Below, piece after piece: positions 4,620 through 61,714 of a DNA stretch of 64,000 nt. Each line of letters begins with the position of its first letter. The stretch's first letter is position 1. A program made the position numbers and the translations under genes. The DNA is from Nannocystis sp. RBIL2. Its GTDB lineage: Bacteria; Myxococcota_A; Polyangia; Nannocystales; Nannocystaceae. The stretch is from NCBI RefSeq assembly GCF_026626745.1, contig NZ_JAPNJW010000001.1, positions 716,311 to 780,310 of the forward strand. Reading direction: 5' to 3'. The notes under the pieces were generated by a model. That model did no database searches. It was not told the origin of the DNA and saw only the letters and a list, made by a program, of their open reading frames with translations.

Positions 4620-4643
4620 ACGGCCGCGCCCGCCCTCGCCGTC

Positions 4644-7879: not shown

Positions 7880-7886
7880 CCCGGCC

Positions 7887-22507: not shown

Positions 22508-22661
22508 CCTCACGAACAGCGCAGACGCGACGGCGACGCCCGCTGGGGGCGCGATCCCCCGGACTTCGGCGCGAGCCCGTGCCTGTGGCCTGGACGCCCT
22601 CGGTTCGAGGAAGTACCACAGTGCGACGGCGCCTGCGCGCCGCGGCCCAAAGCGAGGAATC

Positions 22662-45524: not shown

Positions 45525-46343
45525 TCAGCGCGGCAACAGCCCCGCCGCCTGCCCGCGCGCGCGCAGCTCGGCCAGCGCCGCCGCCCCTTCGGCTCCCATG
45601 TCGCGCGAGAACTCGTTGACGTACAGCGCGATGTGCTGCCGGCAAACCTCGTCGCTCAGCTCCTGCGAGTGCGCCTTCACGAACGGCCACGCCGCGGCCG
45701 GGTCGGCCTCCGCCGCCGCGATCGACCGGGCGATCCCCTCCTCCACCGCCCGCACCTGCCCGGCGGGCAGCGAGCGGTGGGCCGCGATCACCCCGAGCGG
45801 CAGCGGCAGCCCCGTCGCCGCCTCCCACACCTCGCCGAGGTCCGCCACCTGCTGCAGCCCGTGATCGCGGAACACGAACCGCGCCTCGTGGATCACCAGC
45901 CCCGCGTCGACCTCCCCCGCGGCCACCGCCGGCATGATGCGATCGAAGCGCATCGGCACCACGGTCACCGACGCCGGCGCGAAGCAGCGCAGCAGCAGGT
46001 GCGCCGTCGTGTACGCGCCCGGGATGGCGATCTTCCGCCCCGCCAGCGCCACCAGCTCCGTCGCCTCGCGCGCGACCACCAGCGGCCCGCAGCCGCGGCC
46101 CAGCGCCGCGCCTGTCCGCAAGACCAGGTAATCGCGCTCGACCCAGAACAGCCCGTGCGCGCTCAGCTTCGTTACCGGCAGCGGCGCCTCGCCGGCCAGC
46201 GCGCGCTCGTTGAGCGCCTCGATGTCGGCCAGCCACGGCAGCGGCCGCAGCCCCGGCACGAACTCCGGCACGCGCACCAGCGCGTCGAACATCCACGTGT
46301 CGTTCGGACACGGCGAGAACCCGAGAGGCAGCGGCTCGCTCAT
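45525..46343 (-). CDS. mqnD: 1,4-dihydroxy-6-naphthoate synthase (futalosine pathway)
   Basis: 272 aa with N-terminal LGFSPCPNDTWMFDAL, characteristic of the MqnA/MqnD fold. Its ATG overlaps the upstream gene stop. Confidence 0.7.
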   Translation of the reverse strand: MSEPLPLGFSPCPNDTWMFDALVRVPEFVPGLRPLPWLADIEALNERALAGEAPLPVTKLSAHGLFWVERDYLVLRTGAALGRGCGPLVVAREATELVALAGRKIAIPGAYTTAHLLLRCFAPASVTVVPMRFDRIMPAVAAGEVDAGLVIHEARFVFRDHGLQQVADLGEVWEAATGLPLPLGVIAAHRSLPAGQVRAVEEGIARSIAAAEADPAAAWPFVKAHSQELSDEVCRQHIALYVNEFSRDMGAEGAAALAELRARGQAAGLLPR

Positions 46344-46987
46344 TCGTTCCCCCAGTTCGCGGCCTGCAGTCGCAGCAGCGCCGCCTGCACCCCGGCCACC
46401 GCGCGCGGCAGGTCCCACCCGCCCGCGGCGCGTCGGCCGGTTCGATTGCTCACGCAGCGCAGCTGCACCCACGGCACCCCGAGCGCGCGGCAGGCCCACG
46501 CCACCGCCGCCCCCTCCATCGTCTCGACCGTGGCCCCCGTGCCGCTGGCCAGCGCACGCGAGCGCGCGTCCGTCCCGCTGCAGGTGCTGACCGTCGCCCC
46601 GCGCACCACCGGCGCCGCGAGCAGCCGCGCCGCCGCGGCCGTACGCCCCGCGTCGGCTTCGAACGGCCCGACCGACCCGAGCCCCAGCTGCGCCAGCGGC
46701 AGGAAGCCGTCGTCGACCGCGACCCCCTCGTCGCCCAGCCAGTCCTCGCCGACCAGGCACACGTCGCCGACGTCGAGCCTGCCTCCCGGGCCATGTCCTT
46801 CGGGATAGGCGCCGCAGACCCCGAACAGCAGCACCCACGCCGGCCGCCGCAGGGCCAGCGCCTGCGTCATGCTCACCGCCGACGCCACCTTGCCGACGCC
46901 GAGTCGCAGCGCCGAGGGCAGCCCGCGGCCCTCGACCTCGGCGGCGCAGACGAGCAGCGGCGCGGTCACGGCCACACGATAGCGCAC
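46340..46987 (-). CDS. mqnB: futalosine hydrolase (MTA/SAH-nucleosidase family)
   Basis: Nucleosidase-fold motifs (LLFGVCGAYPEG, TVETMEGAAVAWAC, SNRTG). GTG start assumed at VRYRVAV; the ORF extends to 47071. Confidence 0.65.
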   Translation of the reverse strand: MRYRVAVTAPLLVCAAEVEGRGLPSALRLGVGKVASAVSMTQALALRRPAWVLLFGVCGAYPEGHGPGGRLDVGDVCLVGEDWLGDEGVAVDDGFLPLAQLGLGSVGPFEADAGRTAAAARLLAAPVVRGATVSTCSGTDARSRALASGTGATVETMEGAAVAWACRALGVPWVQLRCVSNRTGRRAAGGWDLPRAVAGVQAALLRLQAANWGNE

Positions 46988-47284
46988 CTCGCCGCGCGTC
47001 CCACCGGTGACCCCCCGACCGGTCTCACGCCGAAGGAATTTCTTAAACGCACGATCAATCGTCCGCGCCAACTACTTACTCACGCGAGTAAACATCTCGC
47101 CCGCTCGCGACTGACGCCACCAAAGCCCCGTGGACCGGCGCCAGGCCCCCTCTGCGCCCGATCCTGCGAAGCCCCCTGCACGCGTAAAACGGCGTGCGCA
47201 GCGGCCTTCGCAGGCATTCGAGACCGGTCGCGAATGCTTGTAACGCCGGCCTCGGGTGCGCTAACTAGGCCGCGAGCCTGGTCG

Positions 47285-47962
47285 ATGACACAAACCAACA
47301 CGGCAGCATTCGTCCGCGTCGAAGGCATCCTGCTCGCCCGCGGCGTGCTCAGCGCGGCGGCCTATCTGGCCGCCAACGCCAAGAAGTTCGGTGAGCGGGC
47401 CGTCCGCCTCGGCCTCGTCGGCCTCGCCGCCCCGGTCCACCGCCTGCTCGGGCAGACCGACCGCGCGCTGGCCCACCGCCTCGCCCACCTCGCCATCCGC
47501 GGCATGAGCCAGGACCGCGTCGAGGTCCTCTGCGAGGAGTACGCCGAGGATGTCCTGAAGGACACGATTTTGGATCAGGGCCTCGAGCTGCTCAAGCGGC
47601 TGCAGGCCGAGGGGCGGCGGGTCGTGCTGCTGTCGGACAGCATCGAGCCGATCATGAAGCCGCTCGCGCGCCACCTCAAGCACTACGACGAGCTCGTCTA
47701 CAACAAGATCGAGTTCGAGGACGGCGAGGCCACCGGCAAGCTGCTCGACCCGGTCATCGGCTCGAACGTCGGCGGCCGCTGGCTCGACGACTACGCCGCC
47801 GCGCACGACTTCGAGCTCTCGCGTTGCGCCGCCTACGGCGCCCACGGCCCGGACATGCTGCTGCTCTCGCGCGTCGGCAAGCCGTGCGCAGTCAACCCCG
47901 ACTTCGTCCTGCGCCGCAGCGCCAAGGACGCTGACTGGCCGATCATCGATTATCGCGACTGA
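47285..47962 (+). CDS. HAD-IB family hydrolase (phosphoserine-phosphatase-like)
   Basis: 225 aa with HAD-IB architecture; first gene of the lipid operon. Confidence 0.65.
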   Translation: MTQTNTAAFVRVEGILLARGVLSAAAYLAANAKKFGERAVRLGLVGLAAPVHRLLGQTDRALAHRLAHLAIRGMSQDRVEVLCEEYAEDVLKDTILDQGLELLKRLQAEGRRVVLLSDSIEPIMKPLARHLKHYDELVYNKIEFEDGEATGKLLDPVIGSNVGGRWLDDYAAAHDFELSRCAAYGAHGPDMLLLSRVGKPCAVNPDFVLRRSAKDADWPIIDYRD

Positions 47963-47990
47963 CCTTGGGGACAGGAACCGGAGGACACCC

Positions 47991-49676
47991 GTGAACACGC
48001 CGATCTCGATCAAGCACAGCTACGCCGGCCGCCATGTCCTGCTCACCGGGGTCACCGGCTTCCTCGGCAAGGTCTGGCTGGCGATGGTCCTGCAGTACGT
48101 GCCGGACGTCGGCAAGATCTACGTGCTCACGCGCAAGAAGGCGCTGCGCCCCGCCGCCGACCGGTTCGAGCGCCAGGTCCAGACCTCGCCGTGCTTCCGC
48201 CCGCTGCACGAGAAGTACGGCGCCGACATGAGCCGCTTCATCAGCGAGCGGATCGAGGTCGTCTCCGGCGACGTCTCGCAGCCCGACATGGGCGTCGAGG
48301 ACCCGGCGGTGCTGGCTCGCCTGCGCCGCGACATCGACCTCGTGATCAACTGCGCCGGCCTCGTCGACTTCGACCCCGACCTGCGCGAGGCCATGACGAC
48401 CAACGTCGAGGGCGCCCGCAACGCCGCCAACTTCGTCGCCGCCTGCGACAAGGCGGTGCTGCTGCACATCTCGACCTGCTACGTCACCGGCAAGAAGAAC
48501 GGCCTCATCCCCGAGGTCATCCGCCCCGACCTCTCGCCCGACGGCCAGCCGTTCGACGTCGAGGTCGAGTGCGCCGAGGTCCAGGTCAGCATCGACGCCA
48601 TCCTCGCCGAGCACGAGTCGCCGGAGATGGACAAGCGCGCCCACGACGACGCGGTCAAGCAGATCCGCGACAAGGGCGGCGACGAGAACAACGCGATGCT
48701 GGTGCGCAACACCGCCCGCCGGATCAAGCGCAACCTCTTGAAGGACGCGATGGTCGCCGAGGGCCAGCGCCGCGCCGGCCGCTGGGGCTTCACCAACATC
48801 TACACGTACACCAAGAACATGGCCGAGGCGTGGATCGCCCGCCGCCTCGATCCCGGCCGGTGGAGCATGTTCCGCCCCGCGATCGTCGAGAGCTCCATGA
48901 GCTACCCGTTCCCCGGGTGGAACCAGGGCTTCAACACCTGCGGCCCGCTGAGCTACGCGCTCGGCAGCTGGTTCCGCCACCTGCCGTGCAAGCAGGGCAA
49001 CCCCTTCGACATCATCCCCGTCGACTACGTCTGCCGCGGCATGACCGTCGCCGGCGCCGCGCTGATGCGGGGCGAGCACGCGCCGGTCTACCAGTGCGGC
49101 AGCTCGGACCTGAACCTCCTCACCATCGACCGCGCCGTCGAGCTGGTCGCGCTGGCCCACCGCAAGCACCTGCGCACCCGCGGCGACACCACCCTCGACC
49201 GCGTCGTCAAGTCGCGCTGGGACGCGATCGCCGTCACGCCCGACCACCCGATGCGGATCGAGAACATCCGCAAGATGACCGAGTCGGTCGACGAGTGGCT
49301 GCGCGACCCGCCGAAGGGCTGGCCGGAGTTCCTCCGCCGCCGCCTCGGCGACCTCGTCGAGCACACCGAGGACGCGCTCGAGTCGATCGACAAGATCGAG
49401 CGCATGTGCGAGCTCTACCTGCCGTTCATCCACGACAATTACTTCGCGTTCGTCACCCGCAACCTGCTGCGGCACCCCGTCGTCGAGCCCGAGTGGGACT
49501 GCGACCCGCGCAGCATCGACTGGCGCCACTACTGGATCGACGTCCACATCCCCGGGCTTCGCAAGTGGTGCTTCCCGCTGTTCGAGAACAAGACCCCCGA
49601 GAGCTACGCCCCGCGCCACCCCTTCCGCTTGCGCTCGCCCGAGGCCGCGCCCGCGCCCCACGCCGAGGTCGTCTGA
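47991..49676 (+). CDS. fatty acyl-CoA/ACP reductase (NAD_binding_4 plus FAR C-terminal domain)
   Basis: 561 aa with Rossmann motif [12 protein letters not shown], catalytic YTYTK, and a C-terminal 'sterile' FAR_C-like region. Confidence 0.8.
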
Positions 49677-49680
49677 CACC

Positions 49681-50826
<1,146 letters not shown>

Positions 50827-50836
50827 CCCTTCGAAC

Positions 50837-52318
50837 ATGTCCAAGAGCGCACCCGTCAAGAAGACCACCAGCAAGATCTGGGACAAGGTCAAGGACGTCG
50901 TCGACCCCGACCGCGCCCTCCAGGCCACCGTCGCCGCCGCCATCGAGGGCGTCGCCGTCCGCAACGTCCTCGGCATGGCGCCCGAGACGTGGAAGCCGGG
51001 CAAGCCGCTCAAGCTGCTGCTGGCCGGCTACGTCGGCACGCGCAACACCGGCGCCGACGTCCGCGTCGAGGAGATGATCCGCCAGCTGCGCCACGTCGTC
51101 GGCGACGACCAGCTCGAGCTGACGATCATGACCGTCGATCCCAAGTTGACGCGCGGCTACTTCCGCGCCGTCCACCAGATCGAGCTGCCGGCGGTGTTCC
51201 CCAAGTTCATCGCCACCGAGTGCCCGAAGCACCACGGCGTCATCGCTTGCGAGGGCTCGATGTTCAAGTCGAAGTTCTCGAGCGCGCTGACCTGCTTCAT
51301 GGCCGGCGCCCTCGGGCTCGCCAACGCCGAGAACAAGGTCAGCGTCGGCTACGGCGCCGAGGCCGGCAACATGACCCCGGCGCTCCGCGACTTCGTGCGC
51401 GACGCCTGCAAGAAGTCGCTCGTCATCTGCCGCAACGAGCCCTCGCGCAAGGTCCTCGGCGAGCTCGGCATCCGCACCACCTCTGGGGCCGACACCGCCT
51501 GGACCTTCGACCCCGCTCCGCTGTCCAGGGGCGCCCAGCTGCTGCGCGACGCCGGCTGGGACGGCCGCCAGAAGGTCCTCGTCGTCTGCCCGATCAACCC
51601 GTTCTGGTGGCCGGTCAAGCCCGACCTGCTCAAGTACGCCGCCTACAAGCTCGGCGGGCAGTACAAGCACGAGCACTACAGCGCCTTCTACTTCCACCAC
51701 CACAGCGAAGCGTCCGACAAGAAGTACAACGCGTACATCCAGGCCCTGGCCGACGGTGTCAACGCGTTCGCCGCGGAGCGCGAGTTCTTCACCATCCTCG
51801 TCGGCATGGAGCAGCTCGACCGCCACGCCTGCGAGGACCTGCAGCCGCGCCTCGATCGCGGCGGCGCGCTGTTCGTCAGCGACGAGCACGACATGTACGA
51901 CCTCGTCAGCGTGCTGCGTAACTGCAGCATGATGATTAGTTCGCGCTTCCACGCGATCGTCACCTCGATGCCCGGCCTCGTGCCCTCCGCCGGCGTCACC
52001 ATGGACGAGCGGATCCGCAACCTCATGAACGATCGCGGCCACCCGGACATGTTCTTCGAGGTCGACGAGGAGGGCCTCGGCGACAAGCTGCTGCACACCC
52101 TGCGCCGCCTGTGGCGCGACGCCGAGGGCATCAGCGCCGACATCGCCCGCGCCGTCCCGGCCCAGCTGAAGCTCATGGGTCAGATGGGCATCGACTTCAT
52201 GGACGAGGTCGTCCGCGTCTACCCCGAGTTCCCGCGCCGCGACCTCCCGCGCACCTGGGAAGCCCACCTGCCGCCGCTGCCCGCCAACGTGCAGCGCCTG
52301 CTGGAGCGCCACGCATGA
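50837..52318 (+). CDS. polysaccharide pyruvyl transferase family protein
   Basis: 493 aa with PS_pyruv_trans-type motifs (GYVGTRNTGAD ... ISSRFHAIV). Confidence 0.7.
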   Translation: MSKSAPVKKTTSKIWDKVKDVVDPDRALQATVAAAIEGVAVRNVLGMAPETWKPGKPLKLLLAGYVGTRNTGADVRVEEMIRQLRHVVGDDQLELTIMTVDPKLTRGYFRAVHQIELPAVFPKFIATECPKHHGVIACEGSMFKSKFSSALTCFMAGALGLANAENKVSVGYGAEAGNMTPALRDFVRDACKKSLVICRNEPSRKVLGELGIRTTSGADTAWTFDPAPLSRGAQLLRDAGWDGRQKVLVVCPINPFWWPVKPDLLKYAAYKLGGQYKHEHYSAFYFHHHSEASDKKYNAYIQALADGVNAFAAEREFFTILVGMEQLDRHACEDLQPRLDRGGALFVSDEHDMYDLVSVLRNCSMMISSRFHAIVTSMPGLVPSAGVTMDERIRNLMNDRGHPDMFFEVDEEGLGDKLLHTLRRLWRDAEGISADIARAVPAQLKLMGQMGIDFMDEVVRVYPEFPRRDLPRTWEAHLPPLPANVQRLLERHA

Positions 52319-53949
52319 GCGACAACTTCCTCGAAGTCATCCACGCGGCGGTCCAGAAGACCCGCGAGGATCAGCTCCTCATCGAGCTCCACGGCAAGGA
52401 GCGCCGGCCGACCTCGGCCGCGCAGCTGCTGCACCTCGTGGCCCACGCGCGCGGCTTCCTGCGCAGCCGCGGCGTCAAGCCGGGCGACCGCGTCGCCCTG
52501 CTCGCGCCCAACTCGGCCCGCTGGGTCGCCGCCGACCTCGCCATCCTGTTCGAGGGCGCGATCGTCGTCCCGCTCTACAGCCGCCAGGATCCGAAGGAGC
52601 TGGCGGTCATGGTCCGCGACTGCGGCCCGGTGCTCGTCATCGCCGACGGCCCCGAGCTCGCCGCCGGCCTGCGCAATGCGTGGCCCGAGCACTGCCCGAT
52701 CGAGGACATGCTCGACGTCCTCGCCGGCGAGCCCGTGCACGAGCCGCCGCGCCCGGTCGCGCCGACCGACCCGGTCACCATCATCTACACCTCCGGCACC
52801 AGCGGCGAGCCCAAGGGCGTCGTCCTCACCCGCGCCAACGTCGACTACATGCTGCCGCAGACCCGCGGCAGCGTCGACCGCATCACCGGCGGCAAGCGGG
52901 CCGACAAGGTGTTCCACTTCCTGCCGTTCTGCTTCGCCGGCTCGCGCGTCATGCTGTGGACGCAGCTGTACCGCGGCAACCCGCTGCTGCTGTCGACCGA
53001 CCTGCAGAACCTCGTCGCCGAGATGGGCGCCGCCGACCCGCACTACTACCTCAACGTGCCGGCGGTGCTCGAGCGGATCAAGAACGGCGTCGGCAAGAAG
53101 ATCGGCGAGCGCGGCGGCATCGCCCTCGCCCTCTACCACCGCGGCCAGGCCGCCTTCCGCGCCGTGCGCGAGGGCAAGGCTGGCCTTTTGGACAGGCTCA
53201 CTCTGGCCGCCGCCAAGAAGCTGGTCTTCAGCAAGATCAAGCAGCAGATCGGCCCCAGCCTCGAGTTCCTGATCTGCGGCTCGGCGGCGCTGGCCGAGGA
53301 GACGCAGTGGTGGTTCGAGCTGGTCGGCGTGCAGGTCTACCAGGTCTACGGCCTGACCGAGACCACCGCGATCGTCACCATGGACATCCCCGGCGGCGTG
53401 CGCCCCGGCTACGTCGGCCACGCGATCCAGGGCTGCGAGATCAAGATCTCCGACGAGGGTGAGCTGCTGGTGCGCGGCCCGGGCATCTTCGCCGGCTACT
53501 GGGGCCGCGAGCAGGCCACCGCCGAGGCGATCAAGGACGGCTGGTTCCACACCGGCGACCAGGGCGACCTCGACGCCACCGGCAACGTCCGCATCATCGG
53601 CCGCGTCAAGAACATCCTCGTCCCCGAGTCGGGCCACAACATCGCCCCTGAGCCGATCGAGGAGAAGTTCTTGGCCGCCTGCCCCAAGGCCGAGCAGTGC
53701 ATGCTGGTCGGCCACGCGCGGCCGTTCCTCGGCATCATCGTCCCCGGCGACGTGCCCAAGGACGCCATCGACGCCGCGCTCGAGATCGTCAACGCCAGCG
53801 TCCCGCACTACAAGAAGGTCCGCGCCTTCATCCGCGTCGCCGAGCCGTTCACGATCGAGAACGGCCTCCTCACCGCCAACCAGAAGCTGCGCCGCCGCGC
53901 CGTCGAGCAGCGCTACCGCGCCGAGATCGACAAGGCCTACGCGTCATGA
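52315..53949 (+). CDS. AMP-dependent synthetase/ligase (long-chain fatty-acid-CoA ligase-like)
   Basis: AMP-binding motifs (IIYTSGTSGEPKGV, YGLTET, GWFHTGDQG, RVKNIL). Both its start and its end form ATGA overlaps with the neighbouring genes. Confidence 0.8.
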   Translation: MSDNFLEVIHAAVQKTREDQLLIELHGKERRPTSAAQLLHLVAHARGFLRSRGVKPGDRVALLAPNSARWVAADLAILFEGAIVVPLYSRQDPKELAVMVRDCGPVLVIADGPELAAGLRNAWPEHCPIEDMLDVLAGEPVHEPPRPVAPTDPVTIIYTSGTSGEPKGVVLTRANVDYMLPQTRGSVDRITGGKRADKVFHFLPFCFAGSRVMLWTQLYRGNPLLLSTDLQNLVAEMGAADPHYYLNVPAVLERIKNGVGKKIGERGGIALALYHRGQAAFRAVREGKAGLLDRLTLAAAKKLVFSKIKQQIGPSLEFLICGSAALAEETQWWFELVGVQVYQVYGLTETTAIVTMDIPGGVRPGYVGHAIQGCEIKISDEGELLVRGPGIFAGYWGREQATAEAIKDGWFHTGDQGDLDATGNVRIIGRVKNILVPESGHNIAPEPIEEKFLAACPKAEQCMLVGHARPFLGIIVPGDVPKDAIDAALEIVNASVPHYKKVRAFIRVAEPFTIENGLLTANQKLRRRAVEQRYRAEIDKAYAS

Positions 53950-54719
53950 TCGACTGGACCTACAGCGAAGGCGTGTACGAGCTGACCCTCGCCACGCCGC
54001 CGTGCAACGAGATCGGCACGGCCATGCTCGCCGATCTGCGCCGCTTCCTCGACCAGATCGATCGTGACGCGCACACCCTGATCCTGCGCAGCGGCCTGCG
54101 CCAGGGCTTCTGCGCCGGCGCCGACCTGCGCGAGCTCTACCGCGGCCTGAGCGACGCGCCGAAGGATCAGCACGGGCCGCAGATCCGCCAGTTCATCGAC
54201 GCCATCCACGGCGTCATGGACGACCTCGACATGCTGCCGCTGACCACCGTCGGCGTCGTCCACGGCGTCTGCTTCGGCGGCGGCTTCGAGCTCGCCCTCA
54301 CCTGCGACGTCCTGATCGCCGAGAAGACCGCGCGCTTCTGCTTCCCCGAGCTGCGCCTCGGCATCATCCCCGGCTTCGGCGGCATCCCGCGGCTGCGCCG
54401 CGACGTCGGCAACGGCCTCATCCGCGACCTCCTGCTCAGCGGCCGCAGCATCAACGCCAAGAAGGCGCTGGCGGCCGGCCTCGTCAGCCAGGTCCTCGCC
54501 AGCGGCGAAGGCATCACCGCCGCGCGCGCGCTCGCGGCCCAGACCGCCAAGTTCGACAAGACCGCGCGCGAGGCCGCCAAGGCCTTCATCAAGAAGCTCC
54601 CGAAGGACGAGCTGCTCGCCGAGCGCGAGCTGTTCGTCCGCCTCGCCGAGGGCCCGGCGCTGCTGGCCGCCCTCAAGCGCTTCGTCGAGTCCACCGACCT
54701 GAGACCGTACCTGCCATGA
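53946..54719 (+). CDS. enoyl-CoA hydratase/isomerase (crotonase fold)
   Basis: 257 aa with oxyanion-hole segments (GFCAGADL, VHGVCFGGGFELAL). Confidence 0.8.
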   Translation: MIDWTYSEGVYELTLATPPCNEIGTAMLADLRRFLDQIDRDAHTLILRSGLRQGFCAGADLRELYRGLSDAPKDQHGPQIRQFIDAIHGVMDDLDMLPLTTVGVVHGVCFGGGFELALTCDVLIAEKTARFCFPELRLGIIPGFGGIPRLRRDVGNGLIRDLLLSGRSINAKKALAAGLVSQVLASGEGITAARALAAQTAKFDKTAREAAKAFIKKLPKDELLAERELFVRLAEGPALLAALKRFVESTDLRPYLP

Positions 54720-54949
54720 GCACCTCCCTCGACACCCTCATCCGTCTCGCCGCCAAGCGCTTCGGCGCCGACCCGGCCCAGCTCCGCGCCGAGGACGACC
54801 TGTTCGAGCGCCTCGGCATCGACAGCTTCCAGGCCGTCGAGCTCATCTCGGACGTCGAGGACGAGTTCGACGTCGAGCTGCCCGACTACGAGCTCCAGGG
54901 GATCAAGACCTTCGCCGCCCTGGCGCAGAAGATCGACGCGAGGCGCTAG
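54716..54949 (+). CDS. acyl carrier protein
   Basis: 77 aa with the phosphopantetheine-attachment Ser in LGIDSFQAVEL. Confidence 0.8.
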   Translation: MSTSLDTLIRLAAKRFGADPAQLRAEDDLFERLGIDSFQAVELISDVEDEFDVELPDYELQGIKTFAALAQKIDARR

Positions 54950-56665
54950 ATGCTCGACCTGGGAAAGCTGTCCTGCCTCGGCGAGGCGCTGCGTGACGCC
55001 ACCATCACGTACAAGAGCCGGACCGCGCTGATCGAGGCCGATCGCCACCGCGAGAACTCGCGGCACACCTTCGCCGAGCTGCGGGCCGCGGCCGAGCGGT
55101 TCGCCGGCGCCGTCCAGGCCCACGGCTTCGGCCCCGGCGATCGCTGCGCGATCGTCATGCAGAACCAGTCGAAGTGGTTGATCGGCGCCACCGGGGCGCT
55201 GTGGGCCGGCGCCGTGCTGGTCCCGATCGACTACAAGCTGACCGCGCCCGAGCAGCACGCCCTGCTCGCCCACTGCCGCCCGCGCGTCGTCCTCGCCGAA
55301 TGGCCGGCGTGGGACAAGCTGCAGCGCGAAGATCCCTCGATCTTCGAGCGCACCCTCGTCATCGTCACCGAGGCCCCCGAGGGCGCCGGCATCGGCCGCG
55401 CCGTGCGCTGGGAGGACCTGCCCCAAGGAGCAGGTTTCACCTACCACGCCCGCGCCCGCGAGGACGTCGCCTGCATCGTCTACTCCTCGGGCACCGGCGG
55501 CGCCGCCAAAGGCTGCCAGCTCACCCACGCCAACTACCTCGCCCAGGCCGAGACCCTCGGCAACCTCTACCCGCTGAGCGAGGGCGATCGTTACTTCTCG
55601 ATCCTCCCGACCAACCACGCCATCGACTTCATGTGCGGCTTCTTGCTCGCGCTGATGATGGGCGGCGCGGTCGTCCACCAGCGCACCCTGCGGCCGGCCT
55701 ACCTGGCCAGCACCATGAAGCGCTACGGCATCACCCACATGGCGCTGGTGCCCACGATCCTCAAGACCCTCGAGAAGAAGATCAAAGAGAAGATCGCCGA
55801 GCTACCGAAGTGGCAGCGGCTCGTGCTAGGCGGCCTGATGGACCTCAACGAGTACGCCACCCGCCAGGCGCCCGACCACCGGCTCAGCAAGACCCTGCTC
55901 GCCCCGATCCACGAGTACTTCGGCGGCAAGCTGCGGCTCATGTTCTGCGGCGGCGCCTTCGTCGACCGCACGAGCGCCGAGTACTTCAACCGCCTCGGCC
56001 TGCCGGTCGCCATCGGCTACGGCCTCACCGAGGCCGGCACCGTCCTCACCGTCAACGACCTCAAGCCGTTCCGCGGCGACAGCGTCGGCAAGGCGGTCGA
56101 GGGCACCGAGCTCGAGCTGCGCGACGTCAACGACGCCGGCGTCGGCGAGGTGTGGGTGCGCGGGCCCACCGTCATGCTCGGCTACCTCGACGCGCCCGAG
56201 CTGACCCGCGAGGCGATCGTCGACGGCTGGCTGCGCACCGGCGACCTCGGCAGCATCGACGCCGCCGGGCACCTCAAGCTGTTCGGTCGCACCAAGAACA
56301 TGATCGTCACCGAGGGCGGCAAGAACGTCTACCCCGAGGACATCGAGGCCGCCTTCGGCGACATCGACGACTGCGAGGAGTTCTGCGTGTTCGCGGCCAA
56401 CTTCATCTGGCCGACCGGCAAGATGACCGACGAGCAGCTCATCGTCGTCGTGCGGCCCAAGTCGGGCCTCGACGAGGCCGGCCGCGCCGCCCTCATCGAC
56501 GCCTTCCGCAGGCGCAACCTCCGGCTCGCCGACTACAAGCGGATCTCCGCCTACGTGCTGTGGGACCGCGAATTCCCGCGCACCGCCTCGCAGAAGATCA
56601 AGCGCGACCCGCTCGCCCGCGAGCTCAAGCCGCTCGGCCGCGACGGCGCCCTGCGGGAGCTGTGA
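54950..56665 (+). CDS. AMP-dependent synthetase/ligase (acyl-CoA or acyl-ACP synthetase-like)
   Basis: 571 aa with AMP-binding motifs (IVYSSGTGGAAKG, YGLTEAG, GWLRTGDLG, RTKNMI). Confidence 0.8.
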   Translation: MLDLGKLSCLGEALRDATITYKSRTALIEADRHRENSRHTFAELRAAAERFAGAVQAHGFGPGDRCAIVMQNQSKWLIGATGALWAGAVLVPIDYKLTAPEQHALLAHCRPRVVLAEWPAWDKLQREDPSIFERTLVIVTEAPEGAGIGRAVRWEDLPQGAGFTYHARAREDVACIVYSSGTGGAAKGCQLTHANYLAQAETLGNLYPLSEGDRYFSILPTNHAIDFMCGFLLALMMGGAVVHQRTLRPAYLASTMKRYGITHMALVPTILKTLEKKIKEKIAELPKWQRLVLGGLMDLNEYATRQAPDHRLSKTLLAPIHEYFGGKLRLMFCGGAFVDRTSAEYFNRLGLPVAIGYGLTEAGTVLTVNDLKPFRGDSVGKAVEGTELELRDVNDAGVGEVWVRGPTVMLGYLDAPELTREAIVDGWLRTGDLGSIDAAGHLKLFGRTKNMIVTEGGKNVYPEDIEAAFGDIDDCEEFCVFAANFIWPTGKMTDEQLIVVVRPKSGLDEAGRAALIDAFRRRNLRLADYKRISAYVLWDREFPRTASQKIKRDPLARELKPLGRDGALREL

Positions 56666-56742
56666 ACCGCCGCGGCCCCACCGCCCCCGCTCCGCGGCCA
56701 TCCGCCCCTCCACGGCCCTTCGGGGCCTGATAGCATGCCCGC

Positions 56743-57651
56743 ATGCAAGATCCGGCCACCCTCCTCGCAGTCGTCAACCCAGCCGCCGGCGGCGGCGTGT
56801 GCGGCAAGCGGGCGCCCGCGGTCGTCGACCGGCTGCGGCAGTCGGGCATCAAAGTCGACGTCGTCGAGACGCGCGCCGCCGGTCAGGCCACCGAGCTCGC
56901 GCGCGAGGCCGTCGCGGCCGGCCGGCGCCACTTCATCGCCGTCGGCGGCGACGGCACCAGCTACGAGCTGATCAACGGCATCTTCTCCGGCGCGCTGCCG
57001 GAGGGCGAGCGCCCGTCGCTCGGCATGCTGCCCCTCGGGACAGGTAACTCCTTCCTGCGCGACTTCACCGATCAGGGGGCCGAGTACGCGATCGAGGCGA
57101 TCATCGCCGGCAAGACCCGGCCGTGCGACCTCGTCCGTTGCACGCACACCCGCGGCGTCCTGCACTTCATCAACATCTTCAGCATCGGCTTTGTCGCCGA
57201 CGTCGGCGCCACCCGCAACCGCAACTTCTCGGCGCTGGGCGAGTTCGGCTACACGCTGAGCACCGTGCTGCGGGTGGCCGCGCTGCGGCCCTACACCTTC
57301 CCGATGCAGATCGACGGTCACCCCGAGGACCGCGAGCCGCTGACCTTCCTCTCGTTCAACAACAGCCGCTTCACCGGCGGCAAGATGATGATGGCGCCCG
57401 ACGCCAACACGCGCGACGGCCTGCTCGACATCATCCGGGTCGGTCGCCTCGGCCGCGTCGGCCTGCTGCGCACCTTCCCCAAGATCTTCAGCGGCACGCA
57501 CGTGCAGCACCCGGCCGTGCGCTGCTACCAGGCCCCCGGCCTCGACCTCCGCCTCGCCGAGGACATCGACGTCATGGTCGACGGCGAGATGATCAAGATA
57601 AACCCGCGCCGGCTGGAGGTCGTCCCCGGCGCGCTCGACGTCCGGACGTGA
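56743..57651 (+). CDS. diacylglycerol-kinase-catalytic-domain lipid kinase (YegS/BmrU-like)
   Basis: 302 aa with the DAGK_cat signature (VGGDGTSYELINGI ... LPLGTGNSF). Confidence 0.75.
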   Translation: MQDPATLLAVVNPAAGGGVCGKRAPAVVDRLRQSGIKVDVVETRAAGQATELAREAVAAGRRHFIAVGGDGTSYELINGIFSGALPEGERPSLGMLPLGTGNSFLRDFTDQGAEYAIEAIIAGKTRPCDLVRCTHTRGVLHFINIFSIGFVADVGATRNRNFSALGEFGYTLSTVLRVAALRPYTFPMQIDGHPEDREPLTFLSFNNSRFTGGKMMMAPDANTRDGLLDIIRVGRLGRVGLLRTFPKIFSGTHVQHPAVRCYQAPGLDLRLAEDIDVMVDGEMIKINPRRLEVVPGALDVRT

Positions 57652-57655
57652 TGTA

Positions 57656-58450
57656 ATGGTGTTCAAGATCCTCAAGAAGGCAGCTCAGGTCGTCTACTCG
57701 GCCGCGGTGTGGACCGTCTCGTTCGCGTGGATGGGCGCCGTCGCCGTCACGTGGGCCGCGGTGTCGACGGTGGTCCCGTCGCGCAAGACCCACAACTACA
57801 TCGGCGGGCCCGGCATGGGCGCGGTCCTCAAGATCACCCTGTCGCAGGTCGAGGTCATCTACGACCCCGACTTCGACCCCGAGCGGCGCGGCGTGTTCAT
57901 GATGAATCACGTCAACCTGCTCGACGCGCACGCCGCCTGCGCCTCGATCCCGCACGCCTTCTGCGGCCTGATGAACGCCTGGCAGTTCAAGATCCCGATG
58001 TACGGCTGGATCATGAAGCTGGCCGACGGCATCCCGGTGCCGGACGGCAAGAACCGCTACCGCGCCATCGCCGAGGCCGCGCGCGACCGGGCCAAGAAGG
58101 GCATCTCGATCCTCGCCTTCCCGGAGGCCCACCGCACGCTCGACGGCAAGGTCGCCGAGTTCAAGCGCGGCGTGTTCTGGATGGCCCGCATCGCCGGCCT
58201 CCCGGTCATTCCGCTGGCCACGCACGGCATGTACGATCTGATGCACAAGGGCTCGTACCTGCTCACCCCGACCAAGATCACGATCTATGTCGGCGCCCCG
58301 ATCGAGACGAAGGGCCTGTCCGACGCCGAGCTGGCGGAGGTCATGGAGCGCGCCCACAAGATCATCGCCGACTTCGCGGAGCGCGGCATCGTGCCCGGCC
58401 GCGCCGCGCCGATCCCCTCCGACGCCACGCCGATCGCCTCCGGCGCCTGA
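57656..58450 (+). CDS. 1-acyl-sn-glycerol-3-phosphate acyltransferase (PlsC/AGPAT family)
   Basis: N-terminal TM segment; HX4D motif (NHVNLLD) and FPEAHRT motif. Confidence 0.8.
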   Translation: MVFKILKKAAQVVYSAAVWTVSFAWMGAVAVTWAAVSTVVPSRKTHNYIGGPGMGAVLKITLSQVEVIYDPDFDPERRGVFMMNHVNLLDAHAACASIPHAFCGLMNAWQFKIPMYGWIMKLADGIPVPDGKNRYRAIAEAARDRAKKGISILAFPEAHRTLDGKVAEFKRGVFWMARIAGLPVIPLATHGMYDLMHKGSYLLTPTKITIYVGAPIETKGLSDAELAEVMERAHKIIADFAERGIVPGRAAPIPSDATPIASGA

Positions 58451-58526
58451 TCGCCCGGGTCGGCGATCGGTGTCGGGTGAATCCTCCGTCTGCAAGTCGC
58501 GGCGGCGGAGATGTGGGACCCGGGTC

Positions 58527-58571
58527 ATCGCGGCAGTGTGACGGCCATCGCCCGCGTCACACTGCCGCGAT
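58527..58571 (+). terminator. strong hairpin with 17-nt perfect stems (ATCGCGGCAGTGTGACG - loop 11 - CGTCACACTGCCGCGAT) followed by a T-rich tract, downstream of the lipid operon
   Basis: Read directly from the sequence. Confidence 0.55.
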
Positions 58572-58779
58572 TTCCTTTCGAGTTCCGGCCACGCGCGCGA
58601 TGCCGCCGCGTGGCATTGCTCGTTCCCGTCCCGGGTGTGTGTGACGGACGTACGAACCGTGGAGCCATCGAACGGGCCGCACACGGAGACGGCTGGGTTC
58701 GCCCGTCCGCAAGGATTTCGGTCACCTTGCGCGTCCGAAGGACCTCGATCATGCCGAGAGGTCAGGAGAAGATGGGACC

Positions 58780-59799
58780 ATGACTCGAGGGATTTGGCTG
58801 GCACTGGTCGGTTCGGTTGTGGCCTGTGATGTCGTCGATAACGACGTTCAAACGGCGGTTACGCTGCGAAGCGACGTCGGTAACGGACTCGAGTTGAACT
58901 CCGCCGTGATGAACGGTCAGCAGTTCAACGGCATGCGCATGAACGGGATCAACCTCAACGGCATGCGCATGAACGGTTGGACCATCAACGGGATCAACCT
59001 CAACGGTATCAACCTCAACGGCAGCAGCTTCTCCGCCACCATGGTGGTCGACGGCACTCCGGTTCAGGTGAGCGGCGACGACCTCATCGGCTCGCTGCTC
59101 AGCCTCGAGGCCGGCACCGACACCTACGTCCTGCGCTTCGACGACATCTTCCTCGACCCGGCCGACCCGACCGGCGACGTGTGGTTCTACGACATCGCGG
59201 TGCAGGACGTGGGGGCCGGCACCTGGTCCAGCCTCTGCTACGACCACAACGGCCAGCCGACCCAGGCGATCGCCATCGGCAACTGGTGGGACGGCGTCAC
59301 CGGCGACCGCAACGACGACGCCAGCGTCGTCACCTTCGCCTGCCGCGACGCCGTGCTGGCCAAGTGCGTCGAGTGGGGTTATCGCCCGTGGGCCACCGTC
59401 GGCGGCGTCTCGCTCGCCGATCACCACCAGGCGTGCACCCGGCTGGCCCGCGCCGACTACTGCGGCGACGGCACCCCCCACACCTTCAACGGCACGCCGA
59501 TCGACGTGTTCGACGGGCTCAGCCCGGCGATCCAGGGCCCGGCCACGCTGACCATGCAGAACTGGGGCATCGAGGCCGAGTGGGGCCCGGACGGCGCCGT
59601 CTGTGTCGGCGACCAGCGGCGCCTCAAGATGCTCGACGACGCCGGCGTCCCCTACGAGTTCCCGACCTGCCTCGACGCCATCGACGACATCAGCACCTGC
59701 GGCGACTTCGACAGCGGCCGCGGCGGCCTTTTGGCCGATCGCTACTGCGACAAGTGGCAGTCCGACCCGGGCTCCTGCGACGGCTCCCAGCCCGAGTGA
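58780..59799 (+). CDS. ADYC-domain lipoprotein with N-terminal NG(I/M)(N/R)(L/M)NG repeats
   Basis: Lipobox (LALVGSVVACD), tandem NGMRMNGINLNG repeats, and the eponymous ADYCGDG motif. Confidence 0.6.
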   Translation: MTRGIWLALVGSVVACDVVDNDVQTAVTLRSDVGNGLELNSAVMNGQQFNGMRMNGINLNGMRMNGWTINGINLNGINLNGSSFSATMVVDGTPVQVSGDDLIGSLLSLEAGTDTYVLRFDDIFLDPADPTGDVWFYDIAVQDVGAGTWSSLCYDHNGQPTQAIAIGNWWDGVTGDRNDDASVVTFACRDAVLAKCVEWGYRPWATVGGVSLADHHQACTRLARADYCGDGTPHTFNGTPIDVFDGLSPAIQGPATLTMQNWGIEAEWGPDGAVCVGDQRRLKMLDDAGVPYEFPTCLDAIDDISTCGDFDSGRGGLLADRYCDKWQSDPGSCDGSQPE

Positions 59800-61488: not shown

Positions 61489-61714
61489 ATCGCCGGCTGT
61501 GCATAGTTCGGCGCTGCATCCATGCAGCATGTCTGCCGCCGACTGTGAACATTCGATGGAACATACCCGGCGAGCACGGACGACGTGGCCGGCCTCGCGG
61601 CTCAGGCCCCCGGCCGCCCGGCCGCCCGGCCGCCCGCCGGAATGCGCCTTGCGCCAGCCTTGCGCCGCCTCTACCCTGGCAGAGGTAGCGGTAATATCGC
61701 TGAGAGCGTCGATC

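What the first reader, a model, noticed from the sequence alone, without database searches (positions are those of the whole stretch)
47285..58450. Eleven-gene lipid operon whose domain inventory matches a disaggregated ElbD-type ether-lipid machinery plus extra tailoring enzymes
Contiguous plus-strand genes, several joined by ATGA overlaps and ending at a strong hairpin (58527-58571), encode: a HAD-IB hydrolase, a fatty acyl reductase with FAR_C domain, a second thioester-reductase SDR, a pyruvyl transferase, an acyl-CoA ligase, an enoyl-CoA hydratase, an ACP, a second AMP-ligase, a DAG-kinase-like lipid kinase and a PlsC/AGPAT acyltransferase. From memory (Lorenzen et al. 2014), the Myxococcus xanthus ether-lipid enzyme ElbD combines CoA-ligase, ACP, reductase (NAD_binding_4) and AGPAT domains in one polypeptide. 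Here the same four functions are separate genes in one operon, with a second reductase, a lipid kinase, a phosphatase-like HAD and a pyruvyl transferase added. A pathway making alkyl- or alkenyl-glycerol-type or otherwise unusual, possibly head-group-modified, glycerolipids is a reasonable hypothesis. I cannot place this exact gene combination in any described pathway.
Basis: partly seen in the sequence, partly recalled or inferred. Interest (0 to 1): 0.7.

Follow-up and report, generated by a model that had tools for sequence, protein, structure and literature searches.

The report
Split ElbD-type lipid operon with PEP-transferase
This Nannocystis operon of ten genes is a cross-phylum, apparently undescribed relative of the myxobacterial ether-lipid (elb) cluster, in which the giant ElbD enzyme is split into separate genes and joined to a phosphoenolpyruvate-transferase-like enzyme that may be the missing ether-bond-forming step.

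Summary
Three pairs overlap by ATGA, and a strong hairpin follows the last gene.

The ElbD idea is supported by sequence. FAR, ligase 2, ACP and PlsC align colinearly with the four modules of fused ElbD-type proteins from myxobacteria (28-35% identity). The HAD resembles ElbB, and the lipid kinase has counterparts in canonical elb operons.

It is not simply ElbD plus tailoring enzymes:
- The same gene order recurs in Myxococcota, Acidobacteriota and Bdellovibrionota. At least 589 species genomes carry the signature gene.
- The best-conserved, tightest-linked core is the pyruvyl-transferase-like enzyme with hydratase, ACP and ligase 2. One metagenome contig carries only this module, with hydratase and ligase fused.
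- Canonical elb operons carry a Lar_N protein and an epimerase-type SDR where this cluster has that module.
- The HAD has lost its catalytic aspartates in every orthologue.

My reading is an elb-related pathway for an ether-type glycerolipid. The proposed mechanism is inference only: fatty alcohol plus PEP gives an enolpyruvyl ether, which is thioesterified, hydrated, reduced, phosphorylated and acylated. No paper describing this cluster was found.

The parts
47072..47284 (.). 5' intergenic region between the divergent mqnB-like gene and the operon; presumed promoter region
   Evidence: Lies between ORF 46340-47071 (-) (PNP_UDP_1) and the first operon gene. No sigma-70 consensus was found and no Rfam family matched.
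47285..47962 (+). ElbB-related HAD-IB-fold protein with degenerate active site (likely pseudo-phosphatase)
   Evidence: PF12710 9.8e-19. 32% identical (114 bits) to the HAD of a canonical elb operon. Motif I is F-x-R-V-E-G-x-L rather than DxDGTL in all 60 orthologues aligned. The first Asp of motif IV is also lost.
47991..49676 (+). Fatty acyl reductase with FAR_C-like tail; counterpart of the N-terminal module of ElbD
   Evidence: NAD_binding_4 6.3e-49, Sterile sub-threshold. Best PDB relative is 7eoz, a fatty acyl-CoA reductase, 3.9e-34. Residues 4-541 align with residues 38-593 of Minicystis ElbD-type protein at 34.7%, 298 bits. GxxGxxG and YxxxK motifs are conserved.
49681..50826 (+). Stand-alone thioester-reductase-type SDR
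   Evidence: NAD_binding_4 3e-43. TIGR01746 133 bits, below cutoff. Best PDB relatives are MxaA and PKS/NRPS terminal reductase domains. Only about 41-42 bits to the ElbD reductase and 40 bits to ElbE-type SDR. Second most conserved protein of the cluster.
50837..52318 (+). Signature enzyme: GT-B-fold protein of the polysaccharide pyruvyl transferase superfamily (PyT)
52315..53949 (+). Acyl-CoA-ligase-type adenylating enzyme (ligase 1), dispensable in some lineages
   Evidence: AMP-binding 2.7e-63 plus AMP-binding_C_3. FadD11-like, 200 bits. Missing from 13 of 48 well-covered loci.
53946..54719 (+). Crotonase-fold enoyl-thioester hydratase
   Evidence: ECH_1 1.7e-37. Both catalytic Glu motifs (GGGFELAL, FPELRLG) are at least 90% conserved. 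Found fused to ligase 2 in P0249/L089.
54716..54949 (+). Acyl carrier protein
   Evidence: PP-binding 8.8e-14. GIDS phosphopantetheine serine is conserved.
54950..56665 (+). Adenylating enzyme (ligase 2); counterpart of the ElbD A domain, paired with the ACP
   Evidence: AMP-binding 1.7e-69. 33-35% identical (251-277 bits) to the A domains of ElbD-type proteins. Its start directly abuts the ACP stop.
56743..57651 (+). YegS/DgkB-family lipid kinase
   Evidence: TIGR00147 151.9 bits, above cutoff 118.65. DAGK_cat plus YegS_C. Best PDB relatives are DgkB, BmrU and YegS. 30% identical (114 bits) to the kinase in the Pendulispora elb operon.
57656..58450 (+). PlsC/AGPAT-type acyltransferase; counterpart of the ElbD C-terminal module
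   Evidence: PF01553 3.2e-15. NHxxxxD and FPExxRT motifs. 26-29% identical to ElbD-type AT modules. Least conserved gene, and absent next to the kinase in many Terriglobales loci.
58527..58571 (+). Terminator-like hairpin followed by a U-rich tract
   Evidence: Fold of 58500-58600: dG -56 kcal/mol, z -3.64, 0 of 200 shuffles as stable.

Best explanation
This is a conserved lipid-biosynthesis operon that is an evolutionary sibling of the myxobacterial ether-lipid (elb) cluster.

SHOWN:
- Its FAR, ligase 2, ACP and PlsC genes are the separate-gene equivalents of the four modules of ElbD.
- Its HAD is an ElbB relative that has lost the catalytic aspartates.
- A YegS-type lipid kinase is shared with some canonical elb operons.
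- Canonical operons carry ElbC (a Lar_N-domain protein) and ElbE (an epimerase-type SDR). This cluster instead carries a pyruvyl-transferase-superfamily GT-B enzyme, a true enoyl-thioester hydratase and a terminal-thioester-reductase-type SDR, plus an optional CoA ligase.
- PyT, ECH, ACP and ligase 2 form the conserved functional core.

INFERRED: the product is a fatty-alcohol-derived (ether-type) glycerophospholipid precursor.

PROPOSED MECHANISM (inference only):
1. Ligase 1 or a housekeeping FadD activates a fatty acid, and FAR reduces it to a fatty alcohol.
2. PyT transfers the enolpyruvyl group of PEP to that alcohol. This creates the ether bond as a 2-(alkyloxy)acrylate.
3. Ligase 2 loads this acrylate onto the ACP.
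4. The hydratase adds water to the activated double bond, giving an O-alkyl-glyceroyl thioester.
5. The SDR reduces the thioester to the alcohol, giving an alkylglycerol.
6. The lipid kinase phosphorylates it.
7. PlsC acylates the remaining hydroxyl.

Which ligase serves which step is uncertain, and so is the regiochemistry (this route predicts a 2-O-alkyl ether).
For: Homology to ElbD-type proteins and to elb operon partners.

Cross-phylum synteny: of 48 loci with enough flank, 42 keep HAD-FAR-SDR, 41 keep ECH, and 38 keep ACP, ligase 2 and kinase.

Core module: PyT to ligase 2 are translationally coupled. A minimal locus holds only PyT, a fused ECH-ligase 2 and ACP.

Conservation rank across orthologues is PyT, SDR and ECH, then ligase 2, then the kinase, then ligase 1, then FAR and PlsC. 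This fits a conserved polar-backbone chemistry with variable tail handling.

The enzymes look catalytically competent:
- ECH keeps both catalytic Glu.
- The SDR's nearest solved relatives are carrier-protein thioester reductases such as MxaA.
- PyT keeps Arg, RxH and basic residues with the spacing of the PEP-binding R148, R306, H308 and K328 of CsaB (and PMC10435577 read).

Chemical logic, from established knowledge:
- PEP transferases make C-O-C bonds, and their enolpyruvyl product is an acrylate.
- Crotonases need a thioester. ACP-dependent crotonases (PKS beta-branching) and ACP-dependent reductases are known precedents.
- A kinase in the pathway implies a non-phosphorylated lipid alcohol intermediate.
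- No acyl-CoA dehydrogenase, thiolase or AGPS is present in the operon.
Against: - No lipid data exist for this cluster.
- No member of the PS_pyruv_trans family is known to me to stop at an enolpyruvyl ether or to use a fatty alcohol.
- Ligase 2 is homologous to the ElbD A domain, which loads fatty acids in vitro (PMC9131029). That favours a fatty-acid rather than an alkoxyacrylate substrate.
- The proposed route predicts a 2-O-alkylglycerol, whereas characterised myxobacterial ether lipids are 1-O-alkyl. I found no report of bacterial sn-2 monoethers in the library.
- The role of the degenerate HAD is unexplained.
- All acidobacterial carriers seen are uncultured MAGs, so no phenotype can be matched.
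Confidence: 0.45

Rival explanations
1. Classical ElbD-like route with tailoring. Ligase 2, ACP and FAR make fatty aldehyde or alcohol exactly as ElbD does. The ether bond to a glycerol-phosphate or DHAP-derived backbone is formed by an unknown ElbD-type mechanism. PyT only decorates the finished lipid or its head group with a pyruvate ketal or enolpyruvyl group, while ECH and the SDR modify the acyl chain.
For: Colinear homology of FAR, ligase 2, ACP and PlsC with ElbD-type proteins. The ElbD A and ACP domains load fatty acids in vitro. All characterised members of the PS_pyruv_trans family are ketal-forming tailoring enzymes.
Against: - PyT is the most conserved gene, and it occurs with ECH, ligase 2 and ACP but without FAR or PlsC in L089 and without FAR in L002.
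- ECH has nothing to act on if the ACP carries a saturated acyl chain and no dehydrogenase is present.
- The ElbC and ElbE partners of canonical operons are missing, so something must replace them.
- The need for a lipid kinase is unexplained if the backbone arrives phosphorylated.
Confidence: 0.25
2. An NRPS-like specialised-metabolite cluster. The adenylation enzyme, ACP and thioester reductase release a small aldehyde or alcohol natural product or signalling lipid, which is not a membrane lipid.
For: A stand-alone adenylating enzyme, ACP and NRPS/PKS-type terminal reductase are present. The literature notes that antiSMASH-type tools flag elb-like clusters as BGCs.
Against: Strict conservation of gene content and order across Myxococcota, Acidobacteriota and Bdellovibrionota, at 50% or more identity for PyT, in at least 589 species genomes. 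This is atypical of specialised metabolism. The lipid kinase, PlsC and FAR point to bulk lipid chemistry.
Confidence: 0.12
3. Housekeeping fatty-acid recycling. The genes are beta-oxidation or Aas-like lysophospholipid re-acylation paralogues with no special product.
For: Generic FadD, ECH, ACP and PlsC annotations. All NCBIfam hits for the ligases and ECH are below their equivalog cutoffs. PlsC has weak similarity to the Aas acyltransferase domain.
Against: The operon has no acyl-CoA dehydrogenase, 3-hydroxyacyl-CoA dehydrogenase or thiolase. It does have two reductases, a PEP-transferase-like enzyme and a kinase in fixed synteny. Its specific nearest relatives are ElbD-type proteins.
Confidence: 0.04

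Closest known systems
Myxococcus xanthus elbA-E ether-lipid operon (ElbD; Lorenzen et al. 2014, as summarised in PMC9131029 and PMC13012113), and its canonical relatives seen here in Pendulispora albinea (L088), Minicystis rosea (L087) and metagenome contig L084
   Same: Homologues of all four ElbD modules are present: FAR with FAR_C, adenylation domain, ACP and AGPAT-type acyltransferase. There is an ElbB-related HAD-fold protein, and a YegS-type lipid kinase as in L085 and L088. The clusters occur in the same phylum.
   Different: The ElbD modules are four separate genes, in a different order. The HAD has lost its DxD nucleophile, whereas ElbB-type HADs keep it. There is no Lar_N (ElbC) protein and no epimerase/3beta-HSD-type ElbE. 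Extra genes are PyT, ECH, a thioester-reductase-type SDR and a second ligase. The cluster extends widely into Acidobacteriota and Bdellovibrionota.
Ketal-pyruvyl transferases CsaB (Paenibacillus alvei) and Pvg1p (S. pombe), Pfam PF04230
   Same: The Pfam family match is above the gathering score, the fold is GT-B, and the G-x-x-N-x-G-D-type N-terminal motif and R-x-H C-terminal motif are conserved.
   Different: The score is below the CsaB equivalog cutoff. PyT has N- and C-terminal extensions of about 55 and 50 residues. There is no polysaccharide or glycosyltransferase gene context. It is embedded in a lipid operon. Donor and acceptor are untested.
Split-elbD 'elb-like' gene cluster families in Poribacteria and Acidobacteriota (bioRxiv 10.64898/2026.06.23.733905; Sinninghe Damste et al. 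2018, as cited there)
   Same: These are elb-related clusters outside Myxococcota in which elbD is not one polypeptide. Some have DAG kinase or acyltransferase neighbours.
   Different: Those variants split only between the reductase and A domains and keep elbB and elbD as the core. That preprint makes no mention of a pyruvyl transferase ('pyruvyl' occurs 0 times).
Carboxylic acid reductase and NRPS/PKS terminal-reductase logic (A domain, carrier protein, R domain; e.g. MxaA, CAR)
   Same: An adenylating enzyme, a carrier protein and an NAD_binding_4 reductase whose closest solved relatives are MxaA and PKS/NRPS R domains.
   Different: The three parts are separate proteins here, and they are combined with a crotonase and a PEP-transferase-like enzyme.

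Membership tests
elb ether-lipid cluster (ElbB-ElbE) | ElbD as one polypeptide: FAR/reductase, CoA-ligase (A), ACP, AGPAT | tested here: not met
   The four modules are separate genes (47991-49676, 54950-56665, 54716-54949, 57656-58450), in a different order.
elb ether-lipid cluster (ElbB-ElbE) | Sequence homology of each module to ElbD-type proteins | tested here: met
   Against ElbD-architecture proteins from Minicystis, Pendulispora and metagenomes: FAR 33-35% (266-298 bits), ligase 2 33-35% (251-277 bits), PlsC 26-29% (50-67 bits), ACP 29% (weak). M. xanthus ElbD itself could not be retrieved.
elb ether-lipid cluster (ElbB-ElbE) | ElbB: HAD-superfamily phosphohydrolase | tested here: inconclusive
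   The HAD is 32% identical (114 bits) to the HADs of canonical elb operons, but motif I DxDGTL is replaced by RVEG in all 60 orthologues, whereas the ElbB-type HADs keep it.
elb ether-lipid cluster (ElbB-ElbE) | ElbC (seen here as a Lar_N-domain protein in L084, L085 and L088) and ElbE (epimerase/3beta-HSD-type SDR) | tested here: not met
   tblastn of the Lar_N and ElbE-type proteins against the 64-kb window gave no hit at E <= 1e-3. The operon SDR is only 23% identical (40 bits) to an ElbE-type protein. The rest of the genome was not searched.
elb ether-lipid cluster (ElbB-ElbE) | Produces alkyl or alkenyl glycerol ether lipids | not testable with these tools
   Needs lipidomics of a mutant or a heterologous host.
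Polysaccharide pyruvyl transferase (PF04230; CsaB/Pvg1p) | Family HMM above the curated threshold | tested here: met
   PF04230 45.7 bits against cutoff 25.3. The CsaB equivalog TIGR03609 scores 73.6 bits, below its cutoff of 213.1.
Polysaccharide pyruvyl transferase (PF04230; CsaB/Pvg1p) | PEP-binding residues (CsaB R148, R306, H308, K328) | tested here: inconclusive
   Invariant R199, R370-F-H372 and R392 have comparable spacing (residues from PMC10435577). The correspondence rests on motif spacing, not on a residue-level alignment to CsaB or Pvg1p.
Polysaccharide pyruvyl transferase (PF04230; CsaB/Pvg1p) | GT-B-like two-Rossmann fold | tested here: met
Polysaccharide pyruvyl transferase (PF04230; CsaB/Pvg1p) | Uses PEP to pyruvylate a saccharide acceptor | not testable with these tools
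   No glycan-synthesis genes sit in the operon or its flanks. An enzyme assay is needed.
Crotonase-type enoyl-thioester hydratase | Two catalytic glutamates (rat ECH E144/E164 equivalents) | tested here: met
   GGGFELAL and FPELRLG are conserved at 90% or more in 62 sequences. The assignment to E144/E164 is by motif, from established knowledge.
HAD phosphatase | Motif I DxD nucleophile/acid pair and motif IV acidic pair | tested here: not met
   Motif I is R-V-E. The first Asp of motif IV is replaced by Ala in the alignment to PDB 3fvv.
Alcohol-forming fatty acyl reductase (FAR with FAR_C) | NAD_binding_4 domain plus C-terminal Sterile/FAR_C domain | tested here: inconclusive
   NAD_binding_4 6.3e-49. 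Sterile scores only 19.4 bits against cutoff 35.4. However, the alignment to ElbD-type proteins whose Sterile domain is significant runs through this region, residues 4-541.
YegS/BmrU/DgkB lipid kinase | Family HMM above cutoff; GGDGT motif | tested here: met
   TIGR00147 151.9 bits against 118.65. GGDGT and GTGNSF are conserved. The substrate is untested.
PlsC/AGPAT acyltransferase | HX4D and FPEGTR-type motifs | tested here: met
   NHVNLLD and FPEAHRT are present. PF01553 56.6 bits against cutoff 23.

The most novel reading that the evidence does not exclude
The C3 'glycerol' backbone of an ether lipid is not taken from glycerol-3-phosphate or DHAP but is built from phosphoenolpyruvate. A pyruvyl-transferase-family enzyme forms the ether bond by enolpyruvyl transfer to a fatty alcohol. 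The resulting alkoxyacrylate is then carried on an ACP, hydrated by a crotonase, reduced by a thioester reductase, and only then phosphorylated and acylated. This would be a new ether-bond-forming chemistry and a new route to alkylglycerols (predicted 2-O-alkyl). It would be widespread in uncultured soil Acidobacteriota and in Myxococcota, and could be relevant to the unknown origin of bacterial sn-2 ether bonds such as those in brGDGT-type lipids.
Probability: 0.2. Interest if true: 0.92.

Novelty: new variant of a known kind. Interest (0 to 1): 0.72.

Why it matters
How aerobic bacteria make the ether bond in the ElbD pathway is still unknown (PMC9131029). Which genes account for ether lipids in Acidobacteriota is also an open question for brGDGT palaeoclimate proxies.

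This operon offers three things:
1. A natural dissection of ElbD into single-function proteins, each of which can be assayed separately.
2. A concrete candidate for the C-O-C bond-forming enzyme (PyT). That candidate sits in the position occupied by the equally uncharacterised Lar_N protein ElbC in canonical operons.
3. A genetic marker, the highly conserved PyT, that is extremely abundant in soil and peat metagenomes. It could be used to map producers once the product is known.

Two cultured carriers, Nannocystis pusilla and N. exedens, make the hypothesis directly testable.

Tried and rejected
- M. xanthus ElbD itself could not be fetched. I used ElbD-architecture proteins from other myxobacteria instead.
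- For the same reason, I could not check whether Nannocystis also has a canonical elbBCDE locus elsewhere in its genome. The ElbD-type search listed no Nannocystis protein among the top 120, which is uninformative.
- The afdb50 fold library was unavailable.
- A PyT profile against PDB sequences gave nothing real.
- PyT against plasmids gave no match.
- Exact look-ups of the window PyT and of the Chondromyces protein found no record.
- Literature searches linking pyruvyl transferase to ether lipids or alkylglycerol, and Nannocystis to alkylglycerol, found nothing relevant.
- The Caulobacter ceramide-phosphoglycerate system also has an ACP, an acyl-ACP synthetase and a YegS-like kinase, so I considered it. 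I rejected it because the paper read does not mention a pyruvyl transferase ('pyruvyl' 0 times) and names other enzymes for the phosphoglycerate steps, and because none of the ten operon proteins has an aminotransferase (Spt-type) domain.
- An FkbH-type glyceryl-ACP loader role for the HAD was considered and dropped. The protein is a small HAD-IB with a degenerate site.
- Ligase 2's PDB neighbours (oxalate, malonyl, feruloyl, OSB and FadD13 ligases, all near 1e-31) do not discriminate its substrate.
- Rfam and tRNA scans of the window were empty. The promoter scan found nothing.

Full report
**What is there.** The window is about 70% G+C. GC3 frame analysis, combined with the ORF list, leaves ten plus-strand genes between 47285 and 58450, not eleven. 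The gaps are 28, 4 and 10 nt, then three 4-nt overlaps (PyT/ligase 1, ligase 1/ECH, ECH/ACP), a direct abutment (ACP/ligase 2), 77 nt and 4 nt.

- a HAD-IB fold
- an NAD_binding_4 reductase with a weak FAR_C tail
- a second NAD_binding_4 SDR
- a PS_pyruv_trans protein
- an AMP-ligase with AMP-binding_C_3
- a crotonase
- an ACP
- a second AMP-ligase
- a YegS/DgkB-type lipid kinase (the only protein above an NCBIfam cutoff)
- a PlsC-type acyltransferase

The hairpin at 58527-58571 is real and strong. The flanks are unrelated: futalosine-pathway mqnB/mqnD-like genes lie on the opposite strand upstream, and an ADYC-domain protein lies downstream. The operon is therefore a discrete unit.

**Source and conservation.** The pyruvyl-transferase-like protein (PyT) is 99% identical to a protein encoded in Nannocystis pusilla Na p29 and 98% to one in N. 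exedens DSM 71. It is extraordinarily conserved. The best 120 database relatives are 64-98% identical. The best 80 were 50-99% identical and came from Nannocystaceae, Polyangiales, Sandaracinaceae, Bradymonadia, Bdellovibrionota and, in about half the cases, Acidobacteriota (Terriglobia, Blastocatellia, Acidiferrales, Sulfotelmatobacter).

tblastn of all ten window proteins against these loci shows the same genes in the same order across phyla (also the called genes). Among 48 loci with enough flanking sequence:

| Genes kept next to PyT | Loci (of 48) |
|---|---|
| HAD-FAR-SDR | 42 |
| ECH | 41 |
| ACP, ligase 2 and kinase | 38 |
| Ligase 1 | 35 |
| PlsC | 23 |
| All ten genes | 15 |
| Nine genes (without PlsC) | 29 |
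| PyT alone | 4 |

This is a deeply conserved cluster, not a one-off combination. All acidobacterial carriers seen are MAGs or metagenome contigs.

**Test of the ElbD idea.** According to the literature read here, the M. xanthus elb operon has five genes (PMC9131029; PMC13012113):
- elbA: NAD-epimerase family
- elbB: HAD-like
- elbC: unknown function
- elbD: FAR-like, acyl-CoA synthetase, ACP and AGPAT modules in one polypeptide
- elbE: NAD-epimerase family

Only the A and ACP activities of ElbD were shown in vitro, and the ether-forming step is unknown.

I could not retrieve M. xanthus ElbD itself. An exhaustive HMMER search with ligase 2 gave an indirect route. Beyond its own orthologue group (above about 380 bits), the next tier (245-285 bits, 30-37% identity) is rich in proteins of 1,340-1,700 residues with the ligase domain in the middle. 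Pfam shows three of them to be NAD_binding_4 + Sterile, AMP-binding, PP-binding, Acyltransferase, which is the ElbD architecture. Their family includes proteins of the cultured myxobacteria Chondromyces, Polyangium, Minicystis and Pendulispora.

Their genomic contexts are canonical elb operons:
- L084 (metagenome) and L088 (Pendulispora albinea): HAD, Lar_N-domain protein, ElbD-type, epimerase-type SDR. L088 continues with a YegS-type kinase.
- L085: ElbD-type followed by HAD, with Lar_N and a kinase further downstream.

The 'unknown' ElbC thus appears to be a LarA-N-terminal-domain protein.

Pairwise BLASTP places the window proteins colinearly on these ElbD-type proteins:

| Window protein | Counterpart | Identity | Score |
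|---|---|---|---|
| FAR, residues 4-541 | ElbD-type residues ~22-593 | 33-35% | 266-298 bits |
| Ligase 2 | A domain | 33-35% | 251-277 bits |
| ACP | Carrier domain | 29% | weak |
| PlsC | Acyltransferase domain | 26-29% | 50-67 bits |
| HAD | ElbB-type HADs | 32% | 102-114 bits |
| Kinase | Pendulispora elb kinase | 30% | 114 bits |

**Where it departs from elb.**

(a) The second reductase is not the ElbD-type reductase. It scores about 41-42 bits against it and 40 bits against an ElbE-type SDR. Its nearest solved relatives are MxaA and PKS/NRPS terminal thioester reductases.

(b) No Lar_N or ElbE-type gene is present in the window.

(c) The HAD has R-V-E in place of the D-x-D nucleophile/acid pair in all 60 orthologues aligned, whereas the ElbB-type HADs keep DVDGTL or DLDGTL. 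One motif IV aspartate is also lost. It is very unlikely to be a conventional phosphatase.

PyT, the SDR and ECH have the highest share of positions conserved at 90% or more (0.29-0.35), against 0.12-0.16 for HAD, FAR and PlsC. PyT through ligase 2 are translationally coupled. One contig (L089, 51.5% G+C) carries only PyT, a fused ECH-ligase 2 protein and the ACP. A MAG labelled Planctomycetes carries PyT to PlsC without HAD-FAR-SDR. Ligase 1 is missing in several Myxococcota loci.

**The individual enzymes.**
- PyT passes the Pfam threshold for PS_pyruv_trans, and the CsaB model aligns over residues 59-405 although below its cutoff.
- Mutagenesis and docking of CsaB identified R148, R306, H308 and K328 as PEP-site residues (PMC10435577). 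PyT has invariant R199, R370-x-H372 and R392 at comparable spacing. That is consistent with a PEP site but was not verified by structural alignment.
- ECH retains both catalytic glutamate motifs, so it should be a genuine hydratase.
- The ACP has its GIDS serine, both reductases keep GxxGxxG and YxxxK, both ligases keep the core adenylation motifs, and PlsC keeps HX4D.
- None of the ten proteins has a clear transmembrane segment by hydropathy.

**Mechanism.** What is shown is homology, synteny and active-site conservation. Everything about the product is inferred.

The gene content excludes beta-oxidation, because there is no dehydrogenase or thiolase. It points to reduction of a fatty acyl chain (FAR), chemistry on an ACP-bound thioester (ligase 2, ACP, ECH, SDR), phosphorylation of a lipid alcohol (kinase) and acylation (PlsC).

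Two observations need explaining. A true hydratase is present without any enzyme to make an enoyl thioester. A PEP-transferase-family enzyme is locked to a ligase, an ACP and that hydratase. One scheme explains both:
1. Enolpyruvyl transfer from PEP to a fatty alcohol gives a 2-(alkyloxy)acrylate.
2. This is an alpha,beta-unsaturated acid that must be thioesterified before a crotonase can hydrate it.
3. Hydration gives an O-alkyl-glyceroyl thioester.
4. Four-electron reduction gives an alkylglycerol.
5. The kinase and PlsC convert the alkylglycerol to an ether analogue of phosphatidic acid.

Established knowledge supplies a precedent for each step type:
- MurA and EPSP synthase for enolpyruvyl ethers
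- PKS beta-branching crotonases for ACP-bound substrates
- MxaA and CAR for thioester reduction

The scheme also explains the need for a kinase and the conservation ranking. I rate this specific scheme at about 0.2-0.25. I rate the broader statement (an elb-related pathway to an ether-type, fatty-alcohol-derived glycerolipid) at about 0.45-0.55.

Points against:
- No PS_pyruv_trans enzyme is known to act this way.
- Ligase 2's homology to a fatty-acid-loading A domain suggests an alternative assignment, in which ligase 2, ACP and FAR make the alcohol and ligase 1 activates the acrylate. That assignment fits poorly with the ECH-ligase 2 fusion and with the dispensability of ligase 1.
- The predicted 2-O-alkyl regiochemistry differs from known myxobacterial 1-O-alkyl lipids.
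- The degenerate HAD has no assigned role.

It is suggestive that both cluster types pair the ElbD modules with an enzyme family that handles C3 alpha-keto or alpha-hydroxy acids: Lar_N in elb, and a PEP transferase here. This is only a parallel.

**Novelty.** Elb-like clusters, including ones with elbD split between the reductase and A domains and with neighbouring DAG kinases, have been reported in Poribacteria and Acidobacteriota. ElbD homologues are used as ether-lipid markers in metagenomes. I found no paper that mentions a pyruvyl transferase, a crotonase or this ten-gene arrangement in that context. The search library is incomplete, so this is absence of evidence only. I classify the finding as a new variant of a known kind, with a modest chance of a categorically new ether-forming chemistry.

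Noticed in passing
L084:2042-3619; L088:5937-7514; L085:18838-20472: In canonical elb-type operons the gene between the HAD (elbB) and the ElbD-type gene encodes a Lar_N (lactate-racemase N-terminal) domain protein of about 525-544 residues. The literature read here calls ElbC 'unknown function'. A nickel-pincer-type hydroxyacid racemase relative in an ether-lipid operon deserves attention.
   Followed up: partly
L089:6176-10388: A minimal module on a 51.5% G+C contig: PyT, a single 846-residue ECH-ligase 2 fusion, and an ACP. An aldehyde dehydrogenase is divergently transcribed, and no FAR, SDR, kinase or PlsC is adjacent.
   Followed up: partly
window 47285-47962 and 60 orthologues: The HAD-fold protein has an invariant F-x-R-[VA]-E-G-x-L in place of the DxDGTL motif across three phyla. 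This is a conserved pseudo-phosphatase, or a repurposed HAD of unknown role.
   Followed up: partly
L087:13999-17574 and 19067-20557: In Minicystis rosea the ElbD-ElbE pair is followed by a 1,191-residue CAR-like protein (AMP-binding, PP-binding, NAD_binding_4). An MBOAT acyltransferase lies nearby, and there is no HAD or Lar_N directly upstream. This is another elb variant.
   Followed up: no
L008-L083 (Acidobacteriota loci); P0121-P0240: Every acidobacterial carrier among the best hits is a MAG or metagenome contig (soil, peat, palsa or fen). No cultured acidobacterium appeared, which may explain why the cluster has no phenotype attached. Absence from cultured species was not proven.
   Followed up: partly
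L053:17170-18928: In many Terriglobales loci the kinase is followed not by PlsC but by a thioredoxin-like/VKOR pair and a putative esterase (PF00756).
   Followed up: partly
window 45525-47071 (-): Futalosine-pathway menaquinone genes (VitK2_biosynth/MqnD-like and PNP_UDP_1/MqnB-like) are divergently oriented from the operon. A VitK2_biosynth gene also lies near the minimal module in L089 (3467-4294), possibly by coincidence.
   Followed up: no
window 61181-63916 (+) and 58780-59799 (+): Downstream of the operon lie an eCIS-core-domain protein (PF13699, 2.5e-28) and an ADYC-domain protein (PF20032, 8.5e-61). Both are unrelated to the lipid operon.
   Followed up: no
window 3327-5825 (+), 7854-9086 (+), 22422-24470 (+): Elsewhere in the window: an SHMT gene directly followed by a beta-ketoacyl synthase, a tryptophan-halogenase-like flavoenzyme, and a long FadE-type acyl-CoA dehydrogenase about 25 kb upstream of the operon. 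There are also three Ser/Thr kinases and a sigma-54 activator, typical of myxobacteria.
   Followed up: no
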